Below are positions 30,822-46,759 of a DNA stretch of 64,000 bases, piece by piece. The notes under the pieces are model-generated. The model was not told the DNA's origin. It made no database searches and saw only the letters and a list, made by a program, of their open reading frames with translations. The DNA comes from Candidatus Omnitrophica bacterium UBA6215 (GTDB lineage Bacteria > Omnitrophota > Gorgyraeia > Pluralincolimonadales > Pluralincolimonadaceae): the NCBI GenBank assembly GCA_002421665.1, contig DISH01000004.1:245109-309108 (forward strand). The letters run 5' to 3'. Both the position numbers and the translations under genes were made by a program. Every line of letters begins with the position of its first letter. The first letter of the stretch is position 1.

Positions 30822-32529
30822 AAAGGCGTTCTTTGTTCTTGCGGCCGTAGCTGTGTTGGCTGCCCTGCACTTTGCTTCCGTTGTGTCCAAGATGCCCAAT
30901 AAGTTTGACAATGAGCCTTCTGCCGGCGCCTTCGGAGGTATCCGCCTGCATTACTTGAACGTACTTAATTTTGACTTTTCGCGCGGCGTCTCTTCCCCGG
31001 AGGGGACTTCGCACATACTGGATAATTTTTTCAAATCGGCCGTAAGCGGGACCCATGGCCTCCTGGATTTCGCGCACTGGTATATCTATTCGGGAATATA
31101 CGACATGTTTGGGATACCCGTGAACGAGTTTTGGATGATTATGGCCCAGGCCATCGCGATGTTCACAGGTGTGCTTATCATGTCGTTCTTGGTTTATAAA
31201 GTTTATGATAGTGGAATTATAGCGTTGTTCTTTCTGGCTATGTCGTCGGCATTGTTTGTGCATCATTCGATAAATTTCTATATAATACCGGTTAACACCT
31301 TTTACGAAGGCCTGTTGTTGCTGGTCCTGTATTATTATGATTGGAAGGGACCTTCGGCCCGGGCCAGGTTGTTTTTACTGTTCACGCTCCTCGTAAATTC
31401 AGCATCGGGTAACGTAATCAAGCTTCCCTTATATGCCTATTTTGCCTGGTCGGCCGCCTATAAGCGCGACGGGTATGGGATCGTCCGTTCTTGCGGCGAA
31501 TACCTGGTAAAGAGGGCCGCGAACCTCATTGTGTTATTCCCGGTCGGGTTGGCCGTTGCCGCACATCTTTATGTTTACAAGCGCATCGGAGACAGCAACC
31601 TGGGGCTTCTCGGGTGGGTATCCCAGAAGGTGGGGATAGGGGCGCCTATGGTCTCAAGGTTTTCAGCTTTTGGAAACACCATCTCGAGCATGATATTCAA
31701 CAAGACCTGGCAATGGTGGGTATTTGTCGTGGCAGCGGTCTTCTATGCCCTGGCCGTCATCAGGGGAAGAAGGAAAGCGCCTCTGCTGCTCTTTCCTTTC
31801 CTTTACTATGCTTATATAATAAATTTCGAGCCGAATTCGGCTCTTCTGCCGCTGCTGGTCCTCATGAGCATAGGATCGGCCCAGATGTTCGTTATGGCCC
31901 GCGGCATAAACAGGCAAGGGGCCCTGAGATCCCTGTGTATTGCCTTTTGCATGATATTTACCGTCTATATGATCGCGGCGCCGATAGTATCGGATATATA
32001 TTCCATGAAGGCGGCGGGGAACCGTACACCTAATTATCTTAAGGCGGCCGGATACTTCCTCAGGGAGCATATGTCTGCAGGCGACAAGATCGCCAGCCTT
32101 CTTGATGAGAAGCAGAATATCCTGAACGAATATTATTACGGAAAGAATTTCTTCAAAAGCCCGGTTTACGGTAAGTATATATACGACATGAGGAACATTA
32201 CTGAGCCATTCTCGCCTTCGAACCCGGTTGAGCGCGGAGAGATCCCCGGGACATTCGCTTTCTATGTGATATCTCCGTACCTTTACGCCTCCGACGGCGG
32301 TTACCGGGCGTTTGTGGACAATGAGATAAGGGCTCATTCTCTGAAGAAAGCCGCGGATATAGCCGACGGGAAAACGGTATACCTTTGGATCTATTCGTCA
32401 GGGAAACCGGGCTATGAAAGGGTGGAAGTCTCTGAAGCCAACAGGTTATTTGACAGCGAGTACGCCAACCTGAAGAACCTATTCTATAACAGGCACGTGG
32501 GCGTTGCCTCTACCTGGGGGTTCTATTGA
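30811..32529 (+). CDS. large polytopic membrane protein, putative GT-C-fold glycosyltransferase
   Basis: More than 12 TM helices plus a large C-terminal soluble domain. Immediately follows the polyprenol-P GT, giving an ArnC/ArnT-like gene pair. Confidence 0.5.
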   Translation: MRVKKAFFVLAAVAVLAALHFASVVSKMPNKFDNEPSAGAFGGIRLHYLNVLNFDFSRGVSSPEGTSHILDNFFKSAVSGTHGLLDFAHWYIYSGIYDMFGIPVNEFWMIMAQAIAMFTGVLIMSFLVYKVYDSGIIALFFLAMSSALFVHHSINFYIIPVNTFYEGLLLLVLYYYDWKGPSARARLFLLFTLLVNSASGNVIKLPLYAYFAWSAAYKRDGYGIVRSCGEYLVKRAANLIVLFPVGLAVAAHLYVYKRIGDSNLGLLGWVSQKVGIGAPMVSRFSAFGNTISSMIFNKTWQWWVFVVAAVFYALAVIRGRRKAPLLLFPFLYYAYIINFEPNSALLPLLVLMSIGSAQMFVMARGINRQGALRSLCIAFCMIFTVYMIAAPIVSDIYSMKAAGNRTPNYLKAAGYFLREHMSAGDKIASLLDEKQNILNEYYYGKNFFKSPVYGKYIYDMRNITEPFSPSNPVERGEIPGTFAFYVISPYLYASDGGYRAFVDNEIRAHSLKKAADIADGKTVYLWIYSSGKPGYERVEVSEANRLFDSEYANLKNLFYNRHVGVASTWGFY

Positions 32530-34717: not shown

Positions 34718-35590
34718 ATGGCAAAGAAAGTGCTTGTTACCGGCGCCAACGGTATGTTGGCGGACGCGCTGTGTCCGTTGCTAAGGAAGGCCGGTTATGA
34801 TGTAGCCGCTACCGATATAAACGGGGACAGCGGTATCATCAAAAGCGACATCAGGCAGGTCAACAGCATGCTCTCAGTTGTAAAGGAACACCGGCCGGAG
34901 ATAATATTCCATCTTGCCGCCGAGACCGACGTCGATAAATGCGAGTTACAACCCGAGCACGCATATAATACGAACTGGCAGGGCACGGAGAACATAGCCA
35001 CCATATGTAAGGAACTCGACTTGACGATGGTGTATATAAGTACCGGCGCAGTATTTGACGGAGGGAAGGAGGGCGGTTACATAGAAACGGACAAGCCGGA
35101 TCCCATAAGCATATACGGCATGAGCAAGCTTAAAGGGGAAGAGGCGGTACGCAGTCTTTTGAGTAAATACTACATAGTCCGGGCCGGGTGGATGATAGGC
35201 GGGCATAACAAGGACAAGAAATTCGTGTGGAAGATCGTGCAACTGCTCAACTCCAAGCCGGAGATATCTGTTGTTACCGACAAGACGGGCAGCCCGACGT
35301 TCACATCCGATTTTTCCCGGGGAATAGTTGACATCGTAGGCAGCGGAAAATACGGCCTTTACCATTGCGTCAATAAAGGGATATGCACCCGTTACGATAT
35401 AGCCGTCAAGATAGCGGAGTTCCTGGGAAAGAAAGAGGTCGTGATAAAGCCGGTTACTTCGGATGCCTTCCCTTTGCCTGCGCCAAGAGGCAAGTCCGAA
35501 GCTATGCTCAACCACAACCTGTCCAAACTCGGGCTCGACAAGGCCAGGCCTTGGCAGGAAGCCCTGAAGGAATACCTGAAAAACATATAA
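34718..35590 (+). CDS. rfbD: dTDP-4-dehydrorhamnose reductase
   Basis: VLVTGANGMLA, YGMSKLKGE (YxxxK), RAGWMIG; about 290 aa as for RmlD. Confidence 0.85.
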   Translation: MAKKVLVTGANGMLADALCPLLRKAGYDVAATDINGDSGIIKSDIRQVNSMLSVVKEHRPEIIFHLAAETDVDKCELQPEHAYNTNWQGTENIATICKELDLTMVYISTGAVFDGGKEGGYIETDKPDPISIYGMSKLKGEEAVRSLLSKYYIVRAGWMIGGHNKDKKFVWKIVQLLNSKPEISVVTDKTGSPTFTSDFSRGIVDIVGSGKYGLYHCVNKGICTRYDIAVKIAEFLGKKEVVIKPVTSDAFPLPAPRGKSEAMLNHNLSKLGLDKARPWQEALKEYLKNI

Positions 35591-36672
35591 TGAAGATATT
35601 ATTCCTGGAGCCGTATCCTACGCAAGGCCCTAGCAGCAGGTACAGGGTGGAACAGTATATCCCTTACCTGAGATCAATGGGTATAGAATGCCTGGTGAGC
35701 CCTTTCATCAGCCCTTCATTTTACAGGATCCTGTATAAAAAAGGTATGTATGCCAGAAAATGCGCCTATTTTTGCGCAGGGGTCCTGAGAAGGGTCGTAG
35801 ACCTGTTCAGGGCCGTTACCTGTGACGCCGTTTTTATACATCTTGAGGCCTTTCCGCTCGGGCCTCCCGTAATGGAATGGCTGTTATCTGCCATGGGCAA
35901 GAAGATAATATATGACCTGGATGACGCGATATATCTCGGAGTGGCCAGCCAGAACAACAGCTTCCTGAAAAAGCTGAAGTGCCCCTGGAAGATACCCGTT
36001 ATAATATCCATGAGCAGGCACGTGATAACCTGCAACGAACACCTCGCGCAATATTCCCGGAAATTCAACAAGAACGTAACTATAATACATACATCCGTCG
36101 ATACGGACAGGTTCAAGCCTTCAAGCGGCGTTTCGCCCGGGCCGTTGACGATCGGCTGGATAGGAAGCCATAGCACGGCAAAATATTTCGAATCGCTTAA
36201 AGAGGTTTTTGCGGCGCTCCATGCCCGCGGGCTTGGATTCAGGGTAAAGGTAATAGGGGCCTTTCGTAAGGTCTTTGAGATCCCCGGCGTGGAGATAATT
36301 TACAAGGACTGGAGCCTTGAGGATGAGATAACCGAGTTCCAGTCACTGGATATCGGGGTCTATCCGCTTCCTGACGATGAATGGACCGCAGGGAAGACGG
36401 GTTTCAAGACGATACAGTACATGAGCGTGGCGGTCCCTTGCGTGGCCTCGAACGCCGGCCCTAACCGTATGATAATAGAAGAGGGGATCAACGGTTTCCT
36501 GGCAAAGGACACGGGGGAATGGGTCGATAAATTATCGGCTTTGATCAGCGATACCGGTTTGAGGGGCAGGATAGGCCGTGAGGGGCGAAAGACGGTCCTG
36601 GAGAAATATTCGCTCCAGGTGAACGCGCCAAAGATATTGGAGATAATACGTTCGGCGGCGGAGGCGAAATAG
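35590..36672 (+). CDS. GT4 family (GT-B) glycosyltransferase
   Basis: IGWIGSHSTAKYF ... EGINGFLA. The ATG at 35590 overlaps the rfbD stop (TAATG); the longer ORF from 35383 is an in-frame upstream extension. Confidence 0.75.
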   Translation: MKILFLEPYPTQGPSSRYRVEQYIPYLRSMGIECLVSPFISPSFYRILYKKGMYARKCAYFCAGVLRRVVDLFRAVTCDAVFIHLEAFPLGPPVMEWLLSAMGKKIIYDLDDAIYLGVASQNNSFLKKLKCPWKIPVIISMSRHVITCNEHLAQYSRKFNKNVTIIHTSVDTDRFKPSSGVSPGPLTIGWIGSHSTAKYFESLKEVFAALHARGLGFRVKVIGAFRKVFEIPGVEIIYKDWSLEDEITEFQSLDIGVYPLPDDEWTAGKTGFKTIQYMSVAVPCVASNAGPNRMIIEEGINGFLAKDTGEWVDKLSALISDTGLRGRIGREGRKTVLEKYSLQVNAPKILEIIRSAAEAK

Positions 36673-36673
36673 A

Positions 36674-38563
36674 TTGTGCGGGATATGCGGTATAGTCGAT
36701 TATAGCGGAAAGCCCGTTGAGAAAGGCGCCGTAGGGAGGATGTGCATGGCCCTTGAGCACAGAGGTCCTGACGGCGAGGGGATATATATAGACCCTCCGG
36801 GTTCAGTCGGCCTGGGGCACAGGAGATTGAGTATAATAGACCTTTCTGACGAAGCTTCACAGCCCATGCATAACGAGGACAGCAGCGTATGGCTTGTCTT
36901 CAACGGCGAGATATATAATTTCCATGAATTGCGTCCCGGATTGGAGAAGAAAGGGCACCGCTTTGTGTCCCACTCGGATACGGAGACGATAGTGCATTTA
37001 TACGAGGAATACGGGGAAGATTGCGTGAACCGTCTGCGCGGGATGTTCGCTTTCGCCATCTGGGATGCCGGCAAGAAGAAGATTTTTGCCGCAAGGGACA
37101 GGGCAGGCAAGAAACCTTTCCTATATTCGTGGGATGGGCAGCGTTTTGTGTTCGCTTCGGAATTTTGCGCGATGCTTGAGAGCGGCAGCGTCCGCAGGGA
37201 CATAGAGGAGAACGCTGTCAGCTATTACATGAGCCTCGGGTATATACCGGCGCCTATGACGATATTCAAGGGTATAAGGAAGCTCATGCCTGCGCATACC
37301 CTTATCGCCGATGCTTCGGGCGTCAGGACCCGGAAATATTGGGACCTCGATTATACCTCTAAATTGCGCATAGGAGAGGACGAAGCTGCGGAGAGGTTCC
37401 TGGAACTTTTCAGGGAAGCGGTAAAGATAAGGCTCTATAGCGATGTGCCGCTCGGGGCTTTCCTAAGCGGCGGCGTAGATTCAAGCTGCGTTGTCGCGAT
37501 GATGAGCGAGTTTACCAGGGTAAAGACCTTCTCGATAGGTTTCGAGGAACAGGATTACAGCGAGATAGAGTACGCGCGCCAGGTATCACGCATCTTCGGG
37601 ACAGAACACCGCGAATTCATAGTAAAGCCCGACGCCCTGGATATAATAAGCCTTCTTACGCAAAGGTACGGCGAGCCGTACGCCGATTCCTCGTGCATAC
37701 CTACGTATTACGTGTCGCAGGAAACAAGGAAATTCGTAACAGTTGCCTTGAACGGTGACGGAGGCGATGAATCGTTCGGCGGATATGAGCGCTACCAGGC
37801 GATGAATGCGGCGGATAAGATAGGCAGGCCGGGCCTTAGGGATATTTCGAGGGTTGTTTCCGGCCTGTTGCCGGATTCGACGGAACCCAAGAGTTTTTCT
37901 AGAAGGGTAAAGCGTTTCCTTGGGAATGCCGGGCTTCCTGCGGCAGAAAGATACCTAAGGTGGGTCGGTATATCCGGCGACATACGGTTGGCAGACCTCT
38001 ATTCGCGTGACTTTGCGGCAAAGACGGATATTAACGCTCCCCTGGAGTTATTGAAGCCGTATTTTTCTATGCCGGGAAAGATGGACCTGCTGGACAGGCT
38101 TCTCAAGGCCGACGTGAACACCTATCTTCCTAACGATTTGCTCGTGAAAGTGGATATTGCAGCCATGGCCAATTCACTGGAAGGGCGATCTCCTTTCCTG
38201 GACCATATGGTCATGGAGTTCGCGGCCGGGCTGCCGTCGTCATACAAGATAAGGGGTTCGATCAAAAAATATATAGTAAAGAAAGCCTTTTCAAACAAGC
38301 TCCCGGGCGCTATACTGGGCAGGAGGAAGATGGGCTTCGGCTTGCCCGTAGGCAGGTGGTTCAGGGGAGAACTGAAAGATTACCTGCGCCAGACATTGCT
38401 TTCGGAAACTTCGTTGGGCAGGGGATATTTTGACCGGGACAAGGTCAGGTCGATGGTCGATTCCCATACGGAAGGCCGCCGCGACCTGTCTTTCCAGTTA
38501 TGGGCCATGCTTATGCTTGAGCTCTGGCATAAAAAATTCATCGACGAGAGGACCGTATGCTGA
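36674..38563 (+). CDS. asnB: asparagine synthase (glutamine-hydrolysing) family amidotransferase
   Basis: N-terminal MCGICGI nucleophile Cys2 (needs the TTG start at 36674), then SGGVDSS PP-loop. Confidence 0.9.
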   Translation: MCGICGIVDYSGKPVEKGAVGRMCMALEHRGPDGEGIYIDPPGSVGLGHRRLSIIDLSDEASQPMHNEDSSVWLVFNGEIYNFHELRPGLEKKGHRFVSHSDTETIVHLYEEYGEDCVNRLRGMFAFAIWDAGKKKIFAARDRAGKKPFLYSWDGQRFVFASEFCAMLESGSVRRDIEENAVSYYMSLGYIPAPMTIFKGIRKLMPAHTLIADASGVRTRKYWDLDYTSKLRIGEDEAAERFLELFREAVKIRLYSDVPLGAFLSGGVDSSCVVAMMSEFTRVKTFSIGFEEQDYSEIEYARQVSRIFGTEHREFIVKPDALDIISLLTQRYGEPYADSSCIPTYYVSQETRKFVTVALNGDGGDESFGGYERYQAMNAADKIGRPGLRDISRVVSGLLPDSTEPKSFSRRVKRFLGNAGLPAAERYLRWVGISGDIRLADLYSRDFAAKTDINAPLELLKPYFSMPGKMDLLDRLLKADVNTYLPNDLLVKVDIAAMANSLEGRSPFLDHMVMEFAAGLPSSYKIRGSIKKYIVKKAFSNKLPGAILGRRKMGFGLPVGRWFRGELKDYLRQTLLSETSLGRGYFDRDKVRSMVDSHTEGRRDLSFQLWAMLMLELWHKKFIDERTVC

Positions 38564-40416
38564 AGAACAACGACATCATATGCATATCATCAATAGATTG
38601 GGATTTTATCTGGCAGGGCCACCAGGAGATAATGTCGGTTTTTGCCGCCAATGGCAACCGTGTCCTCTTCATAGAGAACACCGGGGTCAGGTCCCCGGGC
38701 ATAAGGGATATATCCAGGCTTGGCAAGAGGTTCAGTAATTACTTCAGGGGTGTCAAAGGGATACGCAGGGAATCCGAAAACCTCTACGTATATTCCCCGA
38801 TAGTCCTTCCTTTCCCGTATTCAAGGATAGCCAGGTGGATAAACAAGCAAATACTGCTTTCGGTTATAAAAAGGTGGATGAAGGCGGTCCGGTTCTCCGA
38901 TCCGATAATATGGACGTTCCTGCCTACAGGTACCGCCCTCGATATTATAGAGAACATAAACAGGAAACTCCTTGTCTATTATTGTATAGACAGTTTTGCG
39001 GCCAGCTCTTCATCTGCCAAAAAGATAAAAGCATACGAGAAGAAGCTGATCTCATCCGCTGACCTTGTCTTCGTGACATCGCAGGCTTTGCATGATTATT
39101 GCTCGCAGTTCAGCTCCAGCGTGAGCATGTTCCCGTTCGGCGTTAATATCACGAGTTTCGAGGAAGTCAGGAACCGCGATACCGTTGCACCCCAGGGGAT
39201 GGAAGGGATAAATGGTCCGGTCATAGGCTATGTAGGCGGTATACATAAATGGATAGACCAGCGCCTCGTCAGGGAAGCTGCCCTGAAGCATCCCGAACAT
39301 ACTTTTGTTTTCGTCGGGCCTGTTCAAACCGATGTATCGGAGCTTTCTTCCCTTGCGAATGTAAGGTTCCTGGGGGGCAAGAAACATTCCGAGCTGCCGT
39401 ATTACGTGAAATACTTTTCGGTTTGTATCATACCCTACCTTATGACCGAATATACAAAGAACGTATATCCCACGAAACTGAATGAGTATTTGTCAATGGG
39501 CAAACCGGTCGTTTCCACGGCGCTCCCCGAGGTAATAAGGTTCAACAATGAGAACGGCGGTATAGTCTCCGTAGGCGATGGTACGGACGGGTTCATATCC
39601 AGTATAGAGGAGGCGCTTTTGCCCGGGGCTTCCGCGCTTACAGGCAGGCGCATGGAAGCAGCCGCCCTCAACAGTTGGAACAGGAGGATAGAGGATATGA
39701 GCGGGCTTATAAATGCCCGCATGGAGAGCAAAACCTCCTTGAACGCGAACAGATGGAGAGAGGAGCTGGTATCCTTCTATAAGTCGGCTCGCAGCAGGTT
39801 TATAAAGATCGCCGCGGCCATCGCGGTCCTTTATGTCGCGGTCTTTTACACCCCGCTGGTATGGTACGTGGCCGAGCCCCTGAAGGTCTCGGATGCTCTC
39901 GGGAAGTCTGATGCCATAGTCGTGTTTGCGGGAGGCGTAGGAGAATCCGGACGGGCCGGACAGGGTTCGATGGAGAGGCTCGGCTATGCGGTGAGCCTCT
40001 ACCATGAGGGTTATGCGCCTTACCTTGTGTTCTCATCCGGCTATACCAACGTGTATAGGGAGGCGGATGTGATGAAGGCCGTAGCGGTATCCCTGGGCGT
40101 TCCTTCCTCGCGCATAATCCTCGATGAGGACGCAAGCAATACTTATGAGAACGTCGAGTCCGCCGATGAGATCGCCCGTAAGATGTCCTGGCGAAGGATC
40201 ATGGTGGTCAGTTCGCCTTACCATATGAGGCGCGTTGTCCTGACTTTCAGCAAAAGCGCACCGGGGCTGGATGTAATATGTGCACCGGTACCTCAGAGTT
40301 CTTTTTATTCGCACCGCATGATAGAAGGGCTTCGGCAGACGAACATCAGGCAGATTAAAGCTATTTTACACGAATACCTTAGTATAGTATATTATTGGGC
40401 GAAGGGTTATATTTAA
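38557..40416 (+). CDS. fusion protein: N-terminal GT4-like glycosyltransferase, TM helix, C-terminal DUF218 (SanA/YdcF/ElyC-like) domain
   Basis: GT-B region (IGYVGGIHKWID...GKPVVST), TM helix (FIKIAAAIAVLYVAVFY), then DAIVVFAGG...ENTYENV...VVSSPYHMRR typical of DUF218. Confidence 0.7.
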   Translation: MLKNNDIICISSIDWDFIWQGHQEIMSVFAANGNRVLFIENTGVRSPGIRDISRLGKRFSNYFRGVKGIRRESENLYVYSPIVLPFPYSRIARWINKQILLSVIKRWMKAVRFSDPIIWTFLPTGTALDIIENINRKLLVYYCIDSFAASSSSAKKIKAYEKKLISSADLVFVTSQALHDYCSQFSSSVSMFPFGVNITSFEEVRNRDTVAPQGMEGINGPVIGYVGGIHKWIDQRLVREAALKHPEHTFVFVGPVQTDVSELSSLANVRFLGGKKHSELPYYVKYFSVCIIPYLMTEYTKNVYPTKLNEYLSMGKPVVSTALPEVIRFNNENGGIVSVGDGTDGFISSIEEALLPGASALTGRRMEAAALNSWNRRIEDMSGLINARMESKTSLNANRWREELVSFYKSARSRFIKIAAAIAVLYVAVFYTPLVWYVAEPLKVSDALGKSDAIVVFAGGVGESGRAGQGSMERLGYAVSLYHEGYAPYLVFSSGYTNVYREADVMKAVAVSLGVPSSRIILDEDASNTYENVESADEIARKMSWRRIMVVSSPYHMRRVVLTFSKSAPGLDVICAPVPQSSFYSHRMIEGLRQTNIRQIKAILHEYLSIVYYWAKGYI

Positions 40417-40436: not shown

Positions 40437-40937
40437 ATGGTAATTGACGAAAGAGGAAGGTTGTTCGGAAAATTCAACGTGATAGATATTGCCGTTGTCC
40501 TGATCGTATTTGCGATGGTTCCGATGTTTATCATCGGAGGTAAGATAATGGGGGCCAAGAAGGTTGAGTCCGAGGTCAAGCATGAGACCCTTACGGTCGC
40601 TGTCAAGTTCACGAAGATAATTCCCGAGCTTGCCGGTGTCATGAAGGAAGGGGACGTAGAGAAGGCCGAAAACAATAAGCCTATAGGTAAGCTGGTAAAG
40701 ATAATTAGTAATGAGCCCCAAAAGTTGCTGGCGATAGACGTGAACATGAGCGGCGACAAGCTGGGACTTGCCACCGACATGAGTTATCGCGAGATAAAAG
40801 CCCTTTTCGAGTTGGATTGCGTTGTGGATAAAAGGGCGCCTGTCTACCGCGGTTACGTGGTCAAAATAGGCAATTCGCTTACTTTTTCCACGGACTTGTA
40901 CAGCCTTCAGGGAACGATAACCGAAATAAGGAAATGA
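40437..40937 (+). CDS. DUF4330-like small membrane-anchored protein
   Basis: N-terminus ERGRLFGKFNVIDIAVVLIVFAMV (signal-anchor) resembles the DUF4330 family. GGAGG SD upstream. Confidence 0.5.
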   Translation: MVIDERGRLFGKFNVIDIAVVLIVFAMVPMFIIGGKIMGAKKVESEVKHETLTVAVKFTKIIPELAGVMKEGDVEKAENNKPIGKLVKIISNEPQKLLAIDVNMSGDKLGLATDMSYREIKALFELDCVVDKRAPVYRGYVVKIGNSLTFSTDLYSLQGTITEIRK

Positions 40938-41328
40938 CATCCTGTGTTCTGCTCCGACAGAAGCACTTCCATAAGCATCCTTGTTTTCTTAAAAGCTAAG
41001 TACCTTTCAGCCGAAGAGACGCTGGTATCTTGCTGCCATTCAAGCGCCGCAGGCGCTTTGGCGAAGTCGCTGGCGGCGATATCGGCAAAAACTTTTTACG
41101 GCTGTTTCCTTAGCATACTTTCCGAGGAACGCAGGTATTCCGAGTTCTTCTCGGGCAGTCTGGCAGTTCAAAAGTTAAGAGCATTGTTTTCCCGGACGGC
41201 AGGTATCCTCAAAGCTGCCTGCGTATCAAGTAAGGCATGCGGCATGGTATCTTCCGCGAACCGGGCGGTGGGCGCCGTGGGTTGGAAAAAAGCCGTGAAT
41301 GAAAGTTTTTTCTTAGGCTGGTTATACC

Positions 41329-42522
41329 GTGTCTGACGGCAAAACCAGGATACTCAGGATCATCGCGCGTCTCAATGTGGGCGGCCCGGCCATACATACC
41401 ATCCTTTTGACTTCCGCCTTGAACGACGACGCATATGAATCCGTTCTCCTTTGCGGCAGGGTGGAAGATGATGAAAAAGATATGTCGTACCTTGCCGAAA
41501 CAAAGGGCGTGAAGCCTGTCATGATAAGCGGGCTGGGCAGAAAGATAGACCCGATGGGCGATATCAGGGCTTTCGTGCAGATATACAGGTATATAAGGGA
41601 TTTTAAACCGGATATAGTACATACGCATACCGCTAAAGCCGGTGCCTTAGGCCGTATTGCCGCGGTCCTGGCAGGCGTGCCGGTAAGGGTCCACACTTTT
41701 CACGGGCATATCTTCGACGGTTATTTCGGCAGGGTAAAGACATCGATTTTCCTATCGATCGAGAGGGTACTCGCGTTCTTTACCCGTTATATTATAGTCG
41801 TAAGCGACGCGCAAAAACGCGATATATCAGGTAAATACGCGATCGCCGGAGGGGATAAAGTAAGGGTAATAAACCTGGGGCTGGAACTTGAGGAGTTCGC
41901 CGATGACGATTATCCCTCCGGGATAAGAAAAAAATTTGGGATAGGCGCCGGCTCAATAGTGGTGTCCATCGTAGGCCGGCTTGTCCCCATAAAGAACCAC
42001 AGGATGTTCCTTGATGCGGCGCGCAGGTTGGTTGCACAGGCCCCGGGCTTGGATGTAAAATTCCTCGTGGTAGGCGACGGCGAACAAAGACCGTTTCTCG
42101 AGAGATATTCATCGGAGATAGGGCTTGGCGACAGGGTCATATTTTGCGGCTGGGTAGAGGACATGCGGGAAGTATATTCAAGCTCGGATATAATAGCTCT
42201 GACATCTTTGAATGAAGGCACACCGGTCGCCGTGATAGAAGCCATGGCGTCAGGCAGGCCGGTGGTCGCTACCGATGTAGGCGGGGTCAGGGATGTCGTG
42301 GAAGATTCTGTTACGGGTTATCTCGTGCGCTCCGGCGATGACTCCGTTCTTTCCGAGAAGATCATGGAGCTGGCTTCCGACAAGTGCAAGAGGGAATCGT
42401 TCGGAAAGGCAGGCAGGTCGTCAGTAATAAGAAGATATTCGAAAGAACGGTTGGTAGATGACATAAAACGGCTTTACAGGGAAGCGCTTATAGACTATAA
42501 TAAGTGCAAAAAAGGAGTCTAA
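41329..42522 (+). CDS. GT4 family (GT-B) glycosyltransferase
   Basis: KPDIVHTHTAKAG ... EGTPVAVIEAMASGRPVVATDVGG (E-x7-E region). GTG start. Confidence 0.8.
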   Translation: MSDGKTRILRIIARLNVGGPAIHTILLTSALNDDAYESVLLCGRVEDDEKDMSYLAETKGVKPVMISGLGRKIDPMGDIRAFVQIYRYIRDFKPDIVHTHTAKAGALGRIAAVLAGVPVRVHTFHGHIFDGYFGRVKTSIFLSIERVLAFFTRYIIVVSDAQKRDISGKYAIAGGDKVRVINLGLELEEFADDDYPSGIRKKFGIGAGSIVVSIVGRLVPIKNHRMFLDAARRLVAQAPGLDVKFLVVGDGEQRPFLERYSSEIGLGDRVIFCGWVEDMREVYSSSDIIALTSLNEGTPVAVIEAMASGRPVVATDVGGVRDVVEDSVTGYLVRSGDDSVLSEKIMELASDKCKRESFGKAGRSSVIRRYSKERLVDDIKRLYREALIDYNKCKKGV

Positions 42523-42525
42523 ATA

Positions 42526-43491
42526 GTGCATTATCTTATAACCGGCGGAGCCGGTTTTATCGGTTCCCACCTTTCTGACAGGCTGATAAGCGAAGGCCAT
42601 AAGGTTACCGTTCTTGATAATTTTTCCACCGGCAAGTCCGATAACGTAAAGCATCTCGAGAATAAAGCCGGGTTTGAACTGGTCGTGGGCTCTATACTTA
42701 ACGAATTCCTGGTGGATAAGCTCGCGGAACGCTGCGACGCTATTTTTCACCTGGCAGCTGCTGTCGGTGTCGAGTTGATAGTCAACCATCCTTTGGAATC
42801 ACTTACCACGAATATTAAGGGCAGCGAGATAGTCCTTAACATGGCATTCCGTTATCACAAGAAGGTCCTTATAACCTCGACCTCCGAGATATACGGAAAG
42901 AACACGCAAGGGCCCCTTAAGGAGGACCAGGACCGGATACTCGGTTCACCGCTGAAATCAAGATGGAGCTATTCCACCGCTAAGGCCGTCGATGAGATGC
43001 TTGCCTATGTCTACTGGAAGACAAAGGACGTGCCTACGGTCATCGTGCGTCTTTTTAATACCGTTGGTCCCAGGCAGTCCGGCGCCTACGGCATGGTAGT
43101 GCCCAGGTTCGTCAGGCAGGCCCTCGAAGGAAAGGACATAACTGTATACGGTTCCGGCAAGCAGTCGAGGTGTTTCCTGCACGTGAAAGATGTGGTGTCA
43201 GCGCTGCCAAAACTCATAGAGAATCCCAAGGCCTATGGCCAGGTCTTTAATATCGGAAGTCAGGAGGAAGTAACGATAGAAGACCTCGCCCGCAAGGTGA
43301 TCGAAATAACCAAGAGTAAATCGAAGTTGGTCAATATACCGTATGAGAAGGCGTATGAAGAAGGATTCGAGGACATGGAGAGAAGGATCCCGGACACTTC
43401 CAAGATACGCGACCTTATAGGGTTCAAGCCCACGGCCGACCTCAAGGCTATCATAGAAGACGTGGTAAGCTACACGAGGGAAAACAAGTAA
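42526..43491 (+). CDS. NAD-dependent sugar-nucleotide epimerase/dehydratase (GalE/WbpP-like SDR)
   Basis: ITGGAGFIGSHL and YSTAK; about 320 aa. GTG start. Confidence 0.85.
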   Translation: MHYLITGGAGFIGSHLSDRLISEGHKVTVLDNFSTGKSDNVKHLENKAGFELVVGSILNEFLVDKLAERCDAIFHLAAAVGVELIVNHPLESLTTNIKGSEIVLNMAFRYHKKVLITSTSEIYGKNTQGPLKEDQDRILGSPLKSRWSYSTAKAVDEMLAYVYWKTKDVPTVIVRLFNTVGPRQSGAYGMVVPRFVRQALEGKDITVYGSGKQSRCFLHVKDVVSALPKLIENPKAYGQVFNIGSQEEVTIEDLARKVIEITKSKSKLVNIPYEKAYEEGFEDMERRIPDTSKIRDLIGFKPTADLKAIIEDVVSYTRENK

Positions 43492-43493
43492 CC

Positions 43494-45284
43494 GTGAATC
43501 ATGTTTACCTTTTTATCTCCGCATTCCTGTTGTCTTTTCTCGCCACTCCCGCCGTCAAGGCTGTAGCGGGAAGCCTCGGCATAGTAGCAAAGCCCAAAGA
43601 GGACAGATGGCATAAGAAGGTGATTCCCCTTATGGGCGGTATAGCCATATACCTTGCCTTTACGGCTGTTTATGTTGTTTCGACCTGGGGCGGCAAGATG
43701 AACCCGGGTCTCCTGATAGGCGCTACCTCCATATTCATCCTCGGGGTTATCGATGACATAAGAGGCCTGAGCCCGCAAACCAAGCTGATCGGCCAGATCG
43801 TGTGCGCGTCCCTTGCCGTAATTTTCGGCGTTACCATAAAGGTCATACCTTTTGCCGCTATATCCGTGCCTGTTACCATTTTGTGGATGGTAGGGATAAC
43901 CAATTCGTTCAATCTGCTAGATAATATGGACGGCCTTTCTGCGGGTGTTGCGGCGATAGCTTCGATGACGCTCTTCGCCTGTGCCGTGGCCTTGAACAGC
44001 CCGGAGACGGCTGCGGTATCGGTCATACTGGCCGGGGCGGCCACGGGTTTCCTTCCGCACAATTTCCATCCGGCCAAAATATTCATGGGCGATTGCGGCG
44101 CGATGTTCCTGGGTTTTTCGCTTTCGGCCCTGACCATAATGGGTACATGGAAAGAGGCCTCGCACCTGTTTATGGTCCTGCTTATACCGGTGCTAGCATT
44201 GGCGGTGCCTATATTCGATACGCTTTTCGTTGCTATAACCAGGACCATTGACGGCAGGTCTGTAGCAAAAGGGGGGAAGGACCATACCTCGCACAGGATG
44301 GTCTTCCTTGGCTGGCAGGAAAAGAAAGCCGTAACGGCCCTTTATCTCATATCCATACTTTTCGGCGCGGCCGCGTATATATCTCTCCATGTCAAGGTCT
44401 ATGTCAGCGCGATAATAATGTCATTGCTGGTAATGGTGGTATCCGCTTTTGCCATGTTCCTGAACCACTACACCAAGGCTAAGCGCACGCAAAAGGACGG
44501 GATGTCAAAGGATGTCTCGTATTATAAGAACGAATCGGACCTGATCGAGGCGTTGATAAAATACAAGAGAGTGATCTTTGAGGTCGTCTGCGATTTCGTG
44601 CTCATATGTATTGCCTATATCTCCAGTTACATAATTCGTTACGACGGCGTCGTCGACCATTACAATTTCGGGCTTATTGCCAAGTCCCTCCCGATCATTA
44701 TCGTGATCAAGCTGACGGCGTTTTCGGTCAGCGGTGTCTACGGTAATATATGGAGATATATAGGGCTTAACGAACTGCTTAATATAGTAAAGGGGATCCT
44801 CATCGGTTCCGTTACTTCAGTGGTCGCCCTGCTGGTTGCATACAGGTTTGTGGGTTTCTCAAGGATGATATTCATCCTTGATGCAATGGTCCTGCTGATA
44901 CTTATGTCCTCCGTGAGGATAGCTTTCAGGATATTCAGGGAACAGGTCTTCGTCTCCTTCGACGACGGCGGCAGAAGGGTATTGATCTTCGGCGCCGGCG
45001 ATGCGGGCGACGCCTTCCTGAGGGAAGTCAGGAAGAACAGGTCCCTTAGCTATCGTCCCGTGGGTTTTATCGATGACGATATCTCCAAGCAGGGTAGGAG
45101 GATACAGGGTATACCGGTCATAGGAGTTCGTTCGGATATACCCAGGCTTTCCGTAGAGAAGAAGATCGACGAGATAATATTGGCTATTCCCTCGGCTGAC
45201 CGCAAGACAAAGGATGATATTGAGGCCATATGCAGGGAGAGCGGGGTGGAATATCACCAGATAAGCGGGATATACCTTAAGTGA
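43494..45284 (+). CDS. polyprenol-phosphate N-acetylhexosamine-1-phosphate transferase (WecA/MraY family) fused to C-terminal TM + CoA_binding_3-like Rossmann domain
   Basis: VIDDIRGLSP, NSFNLLDNMDGL, FMGDCGAMFLG are the PNPT hallmarks. The C-terminal ~240 aa carry 4 TM helices plus VLIFGAGDAG...YRPVGFIDDD, as in the N-termini of WbaP/CapD-type proteins. Confidence 0.8.
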   Translation: MNHVYLFISAFLLSFLATPAVKAVAGSLGIVAKPKEDRWHKKVIPLMGGIAIYLAFTAVYVVSTWGGKMNPGLLIGATSIFILGVIDDIRGLSPQTKLIGQIVCASLAVIFGVTIKVIPFAAISVPVTILWMVGITNSFNLLDNMDGLSAGVAAIASMTLFACAVALNSPETAAVSVILAGAATGFLPHNFHPAKIFMGDCGAMFLGFSLSALTIMGTWKEASHLFMVLLIPVLALAVPIFDTLFVAITRTIDGRSVAKGGKDHTSHRMVFLGWQEKKAVTALYLISILFGAAAYISLHVKVYVSAIIMSLLVMVVSAFAMFLNHYTKAKRTQKDGMSKDVSYYKNESDLIEALIKYKRVIFEVVCDFVLICIAYISSYIIRYDGVVDHYNFGLIAKSLPIIIVIKLTAFSVSGVYGNIWRYIGLNELLNIVKGILIGSVTSVVALLVAYRFVGFSRMIFILDAMVLLILMSSVRIAFRIFREQVFVSFDDGGRRVLIFGAGDAGDAFLREVRKNRSLSYRPVGFIDDDISKQGRRIQGIPVIGVRSDIPRLSVEKKIDEIILAIPSADRKTKDDIEAICRESGVEYHQISGIYLK

Positions 45285-46759
45285 ACACGCGCGGTAACAG
45301 GATCTGTTCGGGTTGCGACAAGTTCATAGAATACCTCCTTTATACGCTTTTCTTCTTCATATCTTCTTCAAAGAGCGTCCTGGAGGTATTTGCCACCATA
45401 GCCATACTGCTTTGGTTCGTAAAGAAATTCATAGAGTTCAGGGATTTGGCGGCGGTAAGGATATCGGAGTATAAGCCTTCCGCTACGGGAATCAGGTCTT
45501 ACGCGGTTTTCCTGGCCTCGGGGCTAGCTACAATGGTGATGGTCTACGCCGCCATAGTCATGACCATGGGCGTGGTGTCTAAGCATGTTGAGCATGGCTA
45601 TAACCTTTTCGCCCCGCATGTGTTCATACCAATAGTGCTGGCGAGCGCCCTGCTTCTTTCGCTATTCTGCCTTACCATATTTTCGATGGTACACTCCAGA
45701 CAGTTAGGCGCTAACTTAAAGTTGGCTTCCCTGGCGTTCCTCGCGGTAAGCGTTATTACCGCTGGTTTTACGACTTCCAATATAACCATAAGCGGCGGGA
45801 CCCTGATATTCAAGACGATGGAATATTTCCTGCTGTTTTTGGTTATAGTAGATGTCATCAACACACGAGAGAAAGTGGCCAAGGCTGCCATAGCGTTCAT
45901 TGCGCAGGTTTTTATCGTAGGCCTGGACGGGATATACCAGTATTTTTCCGGTCACGATATCTTCAGGCATTTCCCTTTATTCGAGAACATAAAGGTGACC
46001 GCTACCTTCAAGTTCTCCAACAGCGCGGGCACTTTTTTTGCAACCGTCTTGCCGGTCCCTCTATCGCTGGTGCTTTTTAATGCTGTTGGCCGCAGGAAGA
46101 AATTGCTGTTGCTGCTGGTATCGTTTGTCGTTTTTGTTTCCCTTCTTTTGACACAAGCCAGGGCGGCTTGGTTAGGATTTTTTGTCGCGTTCCTTTTTAT
46201 GTGCGTTCTGGCGGGCAGGAAGAAGTTCTTTTCTATTATAGGTGTGTTATCCCTGGTCGTTGTTTTAACGGCCCTATTCGGACCCCAGGGCATAAAGGAC
46301 CAGCTTAAGTCTTTTGCGGAAATAGGCAAGGACCAGTCGAGCCAGGACAGGCTGATAATTTGGGATACGGGGTGGCGGATGTTCACGGACAAGCCTTTGT
46401 TCGGCCTTGGCCTGGGTACTTTCATGAACGAATTCGAAAGATACCGGCCAGCCGGGTATTCGGAGATAGTATATGCCCATAATTGCCTGTTACAAACAGC
46501 CGTCGAGACCGGAATAACTGGTGTGGCCGTGTCTTTGTGGATCGCAGCAGGCATTTTCCTATCGGCCCTAAGGAGATACTTCAGCCAGAAAGATGTTTTT
46601 GTGAAAGCTGTTTCCATAGGTTTCTTGGCGGGAGTGGCAGCGACTCTCGTTAACAGTCTTTTTGACACTAACCTTTATTCCCTTCCTTTGGCCGTTCTCT
46701 TTTGGTCGGTCGCGGGATTGTCGGTGACTAAAATACAAGATAAGCTGCCTGACAATTGA
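45281..46759 (+). CDS. Wzy_C-domain membrane protein (O-antigen ligase WaaL / polymerase / O-oligosaccharyltransferase family)
   Basis: Polytopic; LLTQARAAWLG and periplasmic loop GLGLGTF...YAHNCLLQTAVETGITG typical of Wzy_C. GTG start overlapping the upstream stop. Confidence 0.75.
   Translation: MNTRGNRICSGCDKFIEYLLYTLFFFISSSKSVLEVFATIAILLWFVKKFIEFRDLAAVRISEYKPSATGIRSYAVFLASGLATMVMVYAAIVMTMGVVSKHVEHGYNLFAPHVFIPIVLASALLLSLFCLTIFSMVHSRQLGANLKLASLAFLAVSVITAGFTTSNITISGGTLIFKTMEYFLLFLVIVDVINTREKVAKAAIAFIAQVFIVGLDGIYQYFSGHDIFRHFPLFENIKVTATFKFSNSAGTFFATVLPVPLSLVLFNAVGRRKKLLLLLVSFVVFVSLLLTQARAAWLGFFVAFLFMCVLAGRKKFFSIIGVLSLVVVLTALFGPQGIKDQLKSFAEIGKDQSSQDRLIIWDTGWRMFTDKPLFGLGLGTFMNEFERYRPAGYSEIVYAHNCLLQTAVETGITGVAVSLWIAAGIFLSALRRYFSQKDVFVKAVSIGFLAGVAATLVNSLFDTNLYSLPLAVLFWSVAGLSVTKIQDKLPDN

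What the first reader, a model, noticed from the sequence alone, without database searches (positions are those of the whole stretch)
38557..40416. GT4-like glycosyltransferase fused through a TM helix to a DUF218 (SanA/YdcF/ElyC) domain
From established knowledge, DUF218 proteins (ElyC/YdcF/SanA) are implicated in envelope biogenesis and undecaprenyl-phosphate homeostasis, but their biochemical function is unknown. Here a DUF218 domain is covalently linked to a GT-B glycosyltransferase in a lipid-linked glycan pathway. That gives a concrete functional context for the domain and a hypothesis that it acts on the polyprenol-linked product of the fused GT.
Basis: partly seen in the sequence, partly recalled or inferred. 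Interest (0 to 1): 0.6.

Follow-up and report, generated by a model that had tools for sequence, protein, structure and literature searches.

The report
Glycosyltransferase fused to periplasmic DUF218 domain
One membrane protein joins a cytoplasmic sugar-adding enzyme to a periplasmic SanA/ElyC-type domain of unknown activity; the fusion is real and conserved in over 200 uncultured bacterial species, which ties this domain to lipid-carried sugar-chain assembly without showing what it does.

Summary
Window 38557-40416 (+) is one uninterrupted 619-aa ORF. It has a GT-B glycosyltransferase (res 1-373), a long linker helix, one TM helix (~415-440) and a DUF218 domain (Pfam E=1e-28).

It is not an assembly artefact. 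Well over 100 full-length homologues have the same architecture. At least 204 species-representative genomes encode it (Omnitrophota, Acidobacteriota/Vicinamibacterales, Nitrospinota), and representatives diverge to ~28% identity. Both halves are under purifying selection. Charge bias places the GT in the cytoplasm and DUF218 outside.

The DUF218 half is of the periplasmic SanA/ElyC type. All five residues shown to be essential in E. coli SanA map to conserved R474, T529, H556, R559 and E606; cytoplasmic YdcF lacks the Thr and His. One Omnitrophota subclade has Asn in place of the His.

The conserved neighbours are a WecA-like initiating transferase, a GT4, an SDR sugar enzyme, an AsnB-like amidotransferase, Wzy_C and DUF4330.

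Most likely the periplasmic pocket binds, or possibly processes, the flipped polyprenyl-PP-glycan of the pathway that the fused GT serves. That step is inferred, not shown. No paper in the searched library describes the fusion; databases name it automatically. I rate it a new variant of a known kind, of moderate interest.

The parts
38557..40416 (+). Complete 619-aa ORF: GT-B glycosyltransferase, linker helix, TM helix and DUF218 domain
   Evidence: ORF list. Pfam domains. Nearly all of the 120 best database hits are full-length homologues. 204 species-representative genomes encode a relative.
38557..39675 (+). Cytoplasmic GT-B glycosyltransferase domain (res 1-373); the nearest named family is TuaH
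   Evidence: Pfam Glyco_trans_1_4, residues 221-354, E=2.9e-12. NCBIfam TuaH, E=2.7e-34 but 118.7 bits against a cut-off of 550. AF2 secondary structure. Foldseek hits to MshA, WaaG, BshA, PimA, HepE and GumK. Invariant residues include D14, D16, H22, G224, G227, G228, K307 and E310.
39676..39798 (+). Linker helix (res 374-414), continuous with the TM helix in the model; its membrane-proximal end is basic
   Evidence: AF2 predicts one helix over 374-431. W374 and M381 are invariant; R377, I378 and W400 are nearly invariant. The N-side flank is net +4.3.
39799..39876 (+). Single transmembrane helix (res ~415-440), N-in/C-out
   Evidence: Kyte-Doolittle 19-mer maximum of 2.07 at 418-436. 30 of 40 family members have exactly one segment above 1.6, and the charge bias is positive-inside.
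39892..40413 (+). Periplasmic SanA/ElyC-type DUF218 domain (res 446-619), with conserved pocket residues E463, R474, T529, H556, R559 and E606
   Evidence: Pfam PF02698, residues 452-608, E=1e-28. Domain model pLDDT 89.5. Profile alignment to SanA and ElyC. The E-R-T-H-R-E pattern is intact in 61 of 75 loci. Counts over 73 divergent representatives.
36674..38563 (+). AsnB-like glutamine amidotransferase (XrtA/PEP-CTERM-type amidotransferase-like); it overlaps the fusion's start by 7 nt
   Evidence: Pfam Asn_synthase and GATase_7. NCBIfam TIGR03108, 626 bits, below its cut-off. Directly upstream in 29 loci by tblastn; found in 24 loci by clustering.
40437..40937 (+). DUF4330 single-TM protein directly downstream; a possible periplasmic partner
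   Evidence: Pfam DUF4330, E=7e-19. One N-terminal TM segment. A homologue is present in 25 of 74 loci, 19 of them at position +1.
41329..42522 (+). GT4 glycosyltransferase (stp2-like), the most frequently conserved neighbour
   Evidence: Pfam. NCBIfam TIGR03088-like. Present in 47 loci and in 51 by tblastn.
42526..43491 (+). SDR-family nucleotide-sugar epimerase/dehydratase
   Evidence: Pfam Epimerase and GDP_Man_Dehyd. Present in 27-37 loci at about 70% median identity.
43494..45284 (+). WecA/MraY-family polyprenyl-phosphate sugar-1-P transferase with a C-terminal WbaP-N-terminal-like/CoA_binding_3 region; the likely initiating enzyme of the pathway
   Evidence: Pfam Glycos_transf_4 and CoA_binding_3. 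NCBIfam WecA-like and EPS_sugtrans N-terminal region. Present in 31-40 loci.
45281..46759 (+). Wzy_C (O-antigen ligase/polymerase family) polytopic membrane protein
   Evidence: Pfam Wzy_C, E=1.6e-24. About 13 TM-like segments. Present in 15-17 loci, downstream of the fusion.

Best explanation
Shown: this is a bitopic inner-membrane protein of a polyprenyl-phosphate-linked glycan pathway. Its N-terminal 373 residues form a cytoplasmic GT-B (GT4-type, TuaH-like) glycosyltransferase. A long helix runs into a single TM helix. The C-terminal 175 residues form a DUF218 domain that, by predicted topology, lies in the periplasm. It is of the SanA/ElyC type and retains the polar pocket that E. coli SanA needs for function.

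Inferred: the GT adds a sugar from a nucleotide sugar to a polyprenyl-PP-oligosaccharide started by the co-clustered WecA-like transferase. After the intermediate is flipped, its pyrophosphate-sugar head group is bound by the DUF218 pocket (R474, T529, H556, R559, E606) at the outer face of the membrane. The covalent link through one continuous helix couples the state of the periplasmic lipid-linked pool to the cytoplasmic transferase step. The coupling could be feedback control of the GT, or it could hold the GT at the site where the intermediate is consumed. This would be a hard-wired version of the flux-limiting roles assigned genetically to ElyC (ECA) and SanA (lipid II). Whether the pocket only binds or also chemically alters the intermediate is open; I lean to binding or regulation.
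For: Architecture and topology:
- ORF, domains, structural model and charge bias all agree.

The fusion is selected for, not accidental:
- Nearly all of the 120 best database hits are full-length.
- 204 species representatives in at least three phyla encode it.
- Full-length representatives go down to 28-30% identity.
- Purifying selection acts on both halves and on the junction.
- 995-aa versions add a further GT4 in front of the same module.

SanA/ElyC-type pocket:
- SanA R69, T125, H149 and R152 map onto R474, T529, H556 and R559 by profile alignment. E182 maps onto E606 by motif context only.
- R474, R559 and E606 are invariant, T529 is 35/40 and H556 is 30/40 among 40 close relatives.
- Among 73 divergent representatives they are kept in 62-71.
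- The intact pattern occurs in 61 of 75 genome loci.
- These residues are required for SanA function, and SanA's pocket is predicted to face the membrane (PMC12176290; PMC13251401).
- YdcF, the cytoplasmic paralogue, has Cys and Met at the Thr and His positions.

Pathway context:
- WecA-like transferase, GT4, SDR enzyme, amidotransferase, Wzy_C and deacetylase recur next to the fusion.
- A 29%-identical member sits in a WecA/Wzx/Wzy/UDP-sugar-dehydrogenase cluster.

Regulatory precedent:
- Loss of ElyC raises ECA-PG and loss of SanA raises PG synthesis or lipid II availability (PMC8609368; PMC12176290; PMC13251401).

Binding rather than His catalysis:
- The His is Asn in 11 of 75 loci while the rest of the pocket stays intact.
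Against: - No biochemical activity or ligand is known for any DUF218 protein, so both the ligand and the coupling are inferred.
- I had no model coordinates, so I could not verify that the pocket faces the membrane in this protein.
- The conserved Thr/His/Glu plus two Arg could equally be a catalytic site.
- True stand-alone homologues of the GT exist without an adjacent DUF218 (P0148), so the GT does not need the domain.
- Flippase genes were seldom detectable within 10 kb of the fusion.
- The donor sugar and the acceptor of the GT are unknown. The score against TuaH is far below its family cut-off.
- A tentative alignment suggests the GT4 EX7E motif reads NX7E here.
Confidence: 0.5

Rival explanations
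1. The DUF218 domain is a periplasmic enzyme. It would act on the flipped polyprenyl-PP-glycan made with the help of the fused GT, for example as a phosphodiesterase, pyrophosphatase or hydrolase that releases or trims the glycan or recycles stalled carrier lipid, or as a transferase. The fusion would then simply co-localise two catalytic steps of one pathway.
For: - The conserved polar constellation Thr/His/Glu plus two Arg and a Gly-rich loop after the first strand (GGVGESG) resembles an active site.
- Alanine substitutions at the SanA equivalents abolish function without loss of protein, and the authors propose a catalytic triad (PMC12176290).
- The fold class (adenine-nucleotide alpha-hydrolase-like, weak matches) is typical of phosphate- or nucleotide-handling enzymes.
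- Fusions of two enzymes of one pathway are common.
Against: - His556 is Asn in 11 of 75 genome loci and in 10 of 40 close homologues, sometimes together with Ala or Ser at the Thr position. The rest of the pocket is unchanged and the protein is otherwise conserved.
- No enzymatic activity has been shown for any DUF218 protein.
- No characterised enzyme is a close structural relative.
- The E. coli loss-of-function phenotypes are increases in flux, which fit a brake as well as an enzyme.
Confidence: 0.3
2. The DUF218 domain is mainly a scaffold. It would anchor the GT in a membrane-spanning assembly complex by contacting periplasmic or membrane partners (Wzy_C protein, DUF4330 protein, polysaccharide deacetylase) and would have no small-molecule ligand of its own.
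For: - A DUF4330 single-TM protein lies directly downstream in 19 of 68 loci, and a polysaccharide deacetylase directly upstream in 12.
- Wzy_C recurs downstream.
- ElyC has been proposed to contact the ECA machinery physically (PMC8609368).
Against: - No single partner is conserved in most loci; DUF4330 is present in only about one third.
- The most strongly conserved residues of the domain are the same buried polar pocket residues that matter in SanA, not a surface patch.
Confidence: 0.1
3. The fusion carries no pathway-specific meaning. A general Und-P/cell-wall homeostasis factor (a SanA orthologue) became attached to a neighbouring GT gene by loss of a stop codon, and the two halves work independently. 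At the extreme, the fusion would be an assembly or frameshift artefact.
For: - Stand-alone GT homologues exist.
- Some apparent variants are fragments or IS-associated remnants.
- SanA itself acts on peptidoglycan rather than on a surface polysaccharide.
Against: - The artefact version is excluded. The same uninterrupted architecture occurs in independent assemblies, including a single-cell genome (L024) and a 5.4-Mb long contig (L076), in 204 species representatives.
- There are no indels against a 91%-nucleotide-identical relative.
- The linker is itself conserved: W374 and M381 are invariant, and R377, I378 and W400 are nearly invariant.
- Retention of the fusion down to about 28% identity and across phyla is hard to explain without functional coupling.
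- Scores against the SanA and ElyC equivalog models are far below their cut-offs, so it is not a SanA orthologue.
Confidence: 0.1

Closest known systems
E. coli SanA (periplasmic DUF218 protein that limits peptidoglycan synthesis and lipid II availability)
   Same: - A single TM helix followed by a periplasmic DUF218 domain.
- The essential pocket residues R69, T125, H149 and R152 align with R474, T529, H556 and R559; E182 corresponds to E606 by motif context.
- A link to a polyprenyl-phosphate-dependent pathway.
   Different: - SanA has only a few cytoplasmic residues, whereas this protein has a 373-residue GT plus a 40-residue linker helix on the cytoplasmic side.
- Sequence similarity is low: 33 bits to the family profile, and 11.6 bits against the NCBIfam SanA model with its cut-off of 363.
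- The context is a surface-glycan cluster, not peptidoglycan.
- The organisms are Omnitrophota, Acidobacteriota and Nitrospinota rather than Enterobacterales.
E. coli ElyC (periplasmic DUF218 protein that restrains ECA-PG synthesis and affects Und-P allocation)
   Same: - A periplasmic DUF218 domain with the same Arg/Thr/His/Arg positions.
- Functionally tied to a WecA-initiated, Und-P-linked surface glycan, which parallels the WecA-like gene conserved next to the fusion.
   Different: - ElyC has two TM helices and no enzymatic domain.
- The NCBIfam ElyC score is 37.8 bits against a cut-off of 205.
- ElyC acts in trans on an unidentified step, whereas here the candidate partner enzyme is in the same polypeptide.
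E. coli YdcF (PDB 3CA8), the only solved DUF218 structure
   Same: - Same Pfam family and fold class. It is the best PDB sequence match to the family profile, at a marginal E=0.04.
   Different: - YdcF is cytoplasmic and reported to bind S-adenosylmethionine.
- It has Cys and Met where the fusion, SanA and ElyC have the pocket Thr and His.
- It was not among the top 50 Foldseek matches of the domain model.
B. subtilis TuaH and GT4-type GT-B enzymes acting on lipid-linked or membrane acceptors (WaaG, PimA, GumK)
   Same: - TuaH is the best NCBIfam match for the N-terminal domain, covering nearly its whole length (E=2.7e-34).
- The GT-B fold matches GT4 structures and GumK.
- The conserved Gly-rich loop and K307/E310 resemble donor-binding elements.
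   Different: - The score is far below the TuaH equivalog cut-off (118.7 against 550).
- None of these enzymes carries a TM helix plus a periplasmic domain.
- The tentative WaaG alignment reads NX7E rather than EX7E.
- The donor and acceptor are unknown.
Feedback control of MraY by externalised lipid II (as summarised in PMC13251401)
   Same: - In concept, the amount of flipped lipid-linked precursor at the outer face of the membrane controls a cytoplasmic-face enzyme of the same pathway.
   Different: - In MraY the sensing site lies within the polytopic enzyme itself and no DUF218 is involved.
- For the fusion the analogy is purely inferential.

Membership tests
Pfam DUF218 (PF02698) | Score above the curated gathering threshold of the family HMM over most of the model | tested here: met
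   100.3 bits against 27.6, E=1e-28, model positions 1-132 of 133, residues 452-608.
SanA/ElyC-type (periplasmic) DUF218 proteins | Membrane anchor immediately N-terminal to the domain, with the domain on the periplasmic side | tested here: met
   Prediction only. There is a single TM helix at about 415-440. The positive-inside bias is N-side net +4.3 against C-side +0.3 over 40 sequences. The nucleotide-sugar-dependent GT-B must be cytoplasmic. No experimental topology exists.
SanA/ElyC-type (periplasmic) DUF218 proteins | Pocket residues required for SanA function (R69, T125, H149, R152, E182) | tested here: met
   These correspond to R474, T529, H556, R559 and E606 in the window protein. 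The E182-E606 equivalence rests on motif context because the profile alignment ends before it. The family pattern is intact in 61 of 75 loci, with His replaced by Asn in 11 of 75.
SanA orthologue (NCBIfam NF008092) / ElyC orthologue (NCBIfam NF007794) | Score above the equivalog cut-off | tested here: not met
   SanA: 11.6 bits against 363. ElyC: 37.8 bits against 205. The protein is the same domain type but is not an orthologue of either.
SanA/ElyC-type (periplasmic) DUF218 proteins | Negative control of flux through an Und-P-linked pathway (genetic phenotype) | not testable with these tools
   This needs genetics or reconstitution, and all carriers found are uncultured.
GT-B glycosyltransferase, Glycos_transf_1/GT4 type | Pfam Glycos_transf_1-clan model above its gathering score | tested here: met
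   Glyco_trans_1_4 scores 47.5 bits against 27. Glycos_transf_1 itself scores 23.8 against 26.4, just below.
GT-B glycosyltransferase, Glycos_transf_1/GT4 type | Two-Rossmann-domain GT-B fold | tested here: met
   The AF2 model has pLDDT 87.4. Foldseek probability is 1.00 to MshA, sucrose-phosphate synthase, WaaG, BshA, PimA and HepE, with target-normalised TM-scores of 0.6-0.75.
GT-B glycosyltransferase, Glycos_transf_1/GT4 type | EX7E motif of GT4 enzymes | tested here: inconclusive
   hhalign to E. coli WaaG is weak (probability 0.64%, E=0.09). It aligns WaaG E281-X7-E289 with N302-X7-E310. E310 is invariant and N302 nearly invariant. CAZy family assignment was not testable here.
TuaH (teichuronic acid glycosyltransferase, NCBIfam NF047676) | Score above the equivalog cut-off | tested here: not met
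   118.7 bits against 550. TuaH is the nearest named family only, and no teichuronic-acid context is present.

The most novel reading that the evidence does not exclude
The fusion is a natural, hard-wired transmembrane feedback device. The periplasmic DUF218 pocket would read the level of flipped polyprenyl-PP-glycan, or of free carrier lipid, and signal through the continuous linker-TM helix to throttle the cytoplasmic GT. If so, DUF218 is a lipid-linked-glycan sensor domain, and SanA and ElyC are the split versions that act in trans. The fusion protein would then be a direct biochemical handle for identifying the DUF218 ligand, which has been unknown for decades.
Probability: 0.25. Interest if true: 0.75.

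Novelty: new variant of a known kind. Interest (0 to 1): 0.45.

Why it matters
DUF218 is one of the most widespread bacterial domains still lacking a biochemical function. Three recent E. coli studies (ElyC 2021, SanA 2025 and 2026) place it genetically at the point where pathways compete for the undecaprenyl-phosphate carrier, but they could not say what it binds or does.

A conserved natural fusion adds three things:
- It gives independent evidence, from outside Enterobacterales, that this domain works together with lipid-linked glycan assembly.
- It names a candidate partner reaction, the fused GT step in a WecA-initiated pathway.
- It offers a single polypeptide in which effects of the periplasmic pocket on a measurable cytoplasmic enzyme activity could be assayed.

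It also shows that the SanA/ElyC-type pocket is not confined to Enterobacterales, contrary to the impression given in PMC12176290.

The limits are that every carrier found is uncultured and that the functional link remains guilt by association.

Tried and rejected
- **Artefact or frameshift:** rejected.
- **Direct PDB sequence search with the domain:** only chance hits. The profile search found YdcF only marginally.
- **Fold search of the DUF218 model against the PDB:** only weak adenine-nucleotide alpha-hydrolase-like, USP and RecA-like matches (TM 0.3-0.5), and no informative enzyme relative.
- **Split versions (GT next to a separate DUF218 gene):**
  - P0135 turned out to be a contig-end truncation.
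  - P0148 is a true stand-alone GT on a 2-kb contig with no DUF218 visible.
  - No split pair was found, and the search was shallow.
- **P0259 (CoA_binding_3 + DUF218):** it looked like a second kind of fusion but lies among IS elements, so I discounted it as a probable rearrangement remnant.
- **Possible truncation of the DUF4330 gene:** rejected. The 95%-identical relative has the same 166-aa gene.
- **Flippase co-occurrence:** a PglK-like ABC in only 3 loci, and Wzx not detected by BLAST. Uninformative.
- **Organism names for divergent members:** none available; all are metagenomic.
- **RNA, promoter and terminator scans around the gene:** nothing above chance.
- **Four-sequence alignment with the E. 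coli paralogues:** too noisy to place the Glu, so I replaced it with profile alignments.

Full report

Window 38557-40416 (+) is a single open reading frame of 619 codons, from ATG to TAA. A GAGAGGA Shine-Dalgarno-like sequence lies just upstream, and the start overlaps the end of the preceding gene by 7 nt.

Pfam places Glyco_trans_1_4 at residues 221-354 (E=2.9e-12, 47.5 bits against a gathering score of 27). It places DUF218 at residues 452-608 (E=1e-28, 100.3 bits against 27.6, nearly the whole model). NCBIfam's best matches are TuaH for residues 94-382 (E=2.7e-34, but 118.7 bits against a cut-off of 550) and ElyC for residues 470-582 (E=1.4e-9, 37.8 bits against 205).

The only strongly hydrophobic segment is 415-440, with a 19-residue Kyte-Doolittle mean of 2.07. 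It is preceded by KSARSRFIK. That stretch encodes the end of the linker helix, just before the TM helix.

**2. Is it more than chance or artefact?**

- A search of about 5.8 billion proteins returned 3547 hits. Nearly all of the best 120 are 594-647 aa, cover 96-100% of the query at 52-66% identity and carry both Pfam domains; one is a 429-aa fragment. The named ones are Candidatus Omnitrophota proteins, automatically called 'ElyC/SanA/YdcF family protein', 'YdcF family protein' or 'glycosyltransferase'.
- A scan of one genome per GTDB species found 204 genomes encoding a relative. By record title, the 80 best loci are 45 Omnitrophota, 23 Acidobacteriota (mostly Vicinamibacterales) and 2 Nitrospinota. 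The other 10 are third-party assemblies whose labels (Planctomycetia and others) I treat with caution. The set includes a single-cell genome (L024) and a 5.4-Mb contig (L076).
- L004 is 95% identical in protein and 91% in DNA to the window gene. It has no indels, with 130 synonymous against 29 non-synonymous codon differences. Synonymous changes predominate in the GT, in the linker plus TM, and in DUF218 alike.
- An exhaustive HMMER search of 1.84 billion 50%-identity cluster representatives found 2221 proteins at E<=1e-30. About 50 of the best 150 are full-length fusions of 598-642 aa, at identities down to 28-30%.

The fusion is therefore an old, selected architecture.

**3. Anatomy**

An AlphaFold2 model built on 40 homologues has a mean pLDDT of 87.4. 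It shows two Rossmann-like halves (res 1-373), one helix running from 374 to 431, a kink at T432-P433, a short helix at 434-442, and an alpha/beta domain from 446 to 619 that ends in a long C-terminal helix at 597-618.

Foldseek against the PDB matches the N-terminal part to GT4-type GT-B enzymes: MshA, sucrose-phosphate synthase, WaaG, BshA, PimA and HepE. It also matches the polyprenyl-PP-glycan glucuronosyltransferase GumK. E-values go down to 1e-14 at 12-18% identity.

The GT half is highly conserved in the family. Invariant residues include D14, D16, H22, G224, G227, G228, K307 and E310, so it is very probably active. A weak hhalign alignment to E. coli WaaG (probability 0.64%) places WaaG's E281-X7-E289 on N302-X7-E310. 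If that is right, the second Glu of the GT4 signature is kept and the first is Asn. I treat this as tentative.

**4. Topology**

Over 40 family members, the 16 residues before the TM helix carry a mean of 5.25 Lys+Arg (net charge +4.3). The 16 after it carry 2.1 (net +0.3). Thirty of the 40 have exactly one strongly hydrophobic segment.

A nucleotide-sugar-dependent GT-B must be cytoplasmic. Together with the charge bias this gives N-in/C-out, with the DUF218 domain in the periplasm. This is the topology of SanA and the one predicted for ElyC and YgjQ (PMC3879167; PMC12176290; PMC13251401). It is a prediction, not a measurement.

**5. What kind of DUF218?**

Two recent papers define what matters in SanA.
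- T125A, H149A and E182A abolish function without loss of protein, and a soluble periplasmic SanA is active (PMC12176290).
- A larger mutant panel shows that a conserved pocket, predicted to face the membrane, is required. Its residues include R69, R152 and E182. [quoted passage not shown]

A profile built from the fusion family aligns as follows:

| E. coli SanA | Window protein | Motif in window protein |
|---|---|---|
| R69 | R474 | |
| T125 | T529 | NTYEN |
| H149 | H556 | SSPYHMRR |
| R152 | R559 | SSPYHMRR |

ElyC carries the same Arg, Thr, His and Arg at these positions. SanA E182 (R-E-F) lies just beyond the aligned block. By context it corresponds to the invariant E606 (H-E-Y) in the C-terminal helix, and I mark this one equivalence as probable rather than shown.

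Conservation of these positions:
- Among 40 close homologues, R474, R559 and E606 are invariant. T529 is Thr in 35 of 40, and H556 is His in 30 of 40 and Asn in 10 of 40.
- Among 73 divergent representatives the counts are R474 65, T529 63, H556 62, R559 71 and E606 65.
- Among 75 fusion ORFs in the genome loci, the pattern E463-R474-T529-H556-R559-E606 is intact in 61. The His is Asn in 11, all within loci L014-L037 and including both paralogues of one MAG.

Cytoplasmic YdcF is the only solved DUF218 structure (3CA8) and is only a marginal profile match (E=0.04). It has Cys and Met at the Thr and His positions. So the fused domain belongs to the periplasmic SanA/ElyC type. It is not an orthologue of either protein, because both equivalog scores are far below their cut-offs.

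The domain-only model (pLDDT 89.5, pTM 0.87) has only weak structural neighbours: argininosuccinate synthase, universal stress proteins and RecA-like proteins, with TM-scores of 0.3-0.5. This agrees with the published description of the YdcF fold as adenine-nucleotide alpha-hydrolase-like, and it gives no clue to an enzyme.

**6. Genomic context**

The window is a one-strand glycan-biosynthesis island of about 60 kb. It holds many GT2 and GT4-type transferases, nucleotide-sugar enzymes, B12-radical-SAM and other methyltransferases, a PglK/MsbA-like ABC transporter, a PMT_2-type GT-C, a deacetylase, a Wzy_C protein and two heptosyltransferases.

Immediately around the fusion are these genes:
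- an AsnB-like amidotransferase, upstream and overlapping the fusion's start
- a DUF4330 single-TM protein
- a GT4 (stp2-like)
- an SDR epimerase/dehydratase
- a WecA/MraY-family phosphotransferase
- a Wzy_C protein

Unbiased clustering of all ORFs within six genes of the fusion in the 80 loci gave these recurrent neighbours:

| Neighbour | Loci |
|---|---|
| GT4 (stp2-like) | 47 |
| WecA-like protein | 31 |
| SDR enzyme | 27 |
| DUF4330 | 25 of 74 (19 at position +1) |
| Amidotransferase | 24 |
| B12-radical-SAM protein | 22 |
| Polysaccharide deacetylase | 21 (12 at position -1) |
| Wzy_C | 15 |

A 29%-identical family member sits between a Wzx flippase and an epimerase, in a cluster that also has WecA-like, Wzy_C and UDP-sugar dehydrogenase genes. 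A 42%-identical member sits with GT4, epimerase and AsnB-like genes. The constant theme is a polyprenyl-phosphate-linked, WecA-initiated glycan. No single neighbour is universal.

Variant architectures support the theme. Two 995-aa representatives carry an extra GT4 in front of the same GT-TM-DUF218 module, and another representative fuses a Wzx-type flippase to this GT family.

**7. Mechanism**

*Shown:* the architecture, the conservation, the type of pocket and the pathway context.

*Inferred:* the GT extends a polyprenyl-PP-oligosaccharide on the cytoplasmic face. After flipping, the head group of that intermediate, or of the carrier lipid, is bound by the DUF218 pocket on the periplasmic face.

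In E. coli, loss of ElyC raises ECA-PG and loss of SanA raises PG synthesis or lipid II availability. The two halves here are joined by one continuous helix. Asn naturally replaces the putative catalytic His in a whole subclade. For these reasons I favour a binding or regulatory role, either feedback on the GT or tethering of the GT at the site where the intermediate is consumed. I put 0.5 on that overall coupling model.

A pure scaffold role gets about 0.1, and functional independence of the two halves about 0.1. An assembly artefact is excluded.

**8. Comparison with what is known, and novelty**

The two domains are known families, and public databases already hold thousands of these fusion proteins under automatic names.

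Full-text searches for DUF218 with undecaprenyl, with glycosyltransferase and fusion, and alone (57 papers) found no description of a GT-DUF218 fusion. The closest remark is a gene-neighbourhood association of ElyC-like DUF218 with VanZ-1 and exopolysaccharide genes (PMC12419801). The ElyC and SanA papers do not mention fusions.

I therefore class it as a new variant of a known kind: a SanA/ElyC-type periplasmic DUF218 protein with a glycosyltransferase on its cytoplasmic end.

It is moderately interesting. It does not reveal the activity of DUF218. It does extend the link between DUF218 and lipid-linked glycans to at least three phyla outside Enterobacterales, and it names a candidate partner reaction. 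It also provides a protein in which the effect of the periplasmic pocket on a cytoplasmic enzyme could be measured directly.

**9. Limits**

- All carriers found are uncultured.
- The donor and acceptor of the GT are unknown.
- The search for split GT plus DUF218 gene pairs was shallow.

Noticed in passing
window 43494-45284 (+): The WecA/MraY-family phosphotransferase (Glycos_transf_4, res 72-217) has a C-terminal ~230 residues that match the N-terminal, non-catalytic half of WbaP/WcaJ-type phosphoglycosyl transferases, including CoA_binding_3. I did not expect this chimeric architecture. The same ~596-aa form recurs in 31 of the fusion loci.
   Followed up: partly
window 40437-40937 (+): A DUF4330 protein with one N-terminal TM segment lies directly downstream of the fusion. 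Homologues of 163-423 aa occur in 25 of 74 loci, 19 of them at position +1. Its function is unknown, and it may be a periplasmic partner.
   Followed up: partly
window 40938-41328: A 390-nt gap with no convincing gene sits in an otherwise tightly packed, often overlapping operon. It contains only an unsupported 130-aa GTG ORF. There is no Rfam match and no above-chance promoter or terminator signal.
   Followed up: partly
window 1-64000: Essentially all credible genes are on the + strand, and GC skew is positive throughout. The window is one very large glycan-biosynthesis island. It includes three B12-binding radical-SAM enzymes (1264-2934, 16739-18292 and relatives), a SPASM radical-SAM enzyme (14113-15135), several methyltransferases, cytidylyltransferases and a PglK/MsbA-like ABC transporter (12384-14213).
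   Followed up: partly
window 22796-24316 and 30799-32529 (+): Two large polytopic membrane ORFs (at least 6 and about 8 hydrophobic segments) have no Pfam or NCBIfam match. They are candidates for an unrecognised flippase, polymerase or GT-C. The soluble ORFs 10493-12400 (635 aa) and 15135-16742 (535 aa) also have no family match.
   Followed up: no
loci L014-L037 (e.g. L016:10001-11842, L021:4708-6555): A subclade has Asn instead of the pocket His (SSPYNMRR), together with a changed Gly-rich loop (GGVGETGSPGKST). One MAG (PEUD01, CG02_land_8_20_14_3_00__42_8) carries two paralogous fusion genes, both of the Asn type.
   Followed up: partly
P0123, P0126 (995 aa), P0229 (854 aa): These are larger relatives. 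Two have an additional N-terminal GT4 in front of the same GT-TM-DUF218 module, and one fuses a Wzx-type flippase (Polysacc_synt) to this GT family.
   Followed up: no
L087:2984-4198: A 404-aa protein joins a CoA_binding_3 fragment to the linker-TM-DUF218 module. It is flanked by several transposase genes (rve, DDE_Tnp_ISL3) and a group II intron-type reverse transcriptase, so it is probably a rearrangement remnant rather than a functional architecture.
   Followed up: partly
window 35383-36672 (+): The longest ORF for this GT4-type gene starts 208 nt inside the preceding RmlD-like gene. The conserved protein probably starts at the ATG at 35590 (MKILFLE...), which abuts the stop codon of the RmlD-like gene.
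   Followed up: no
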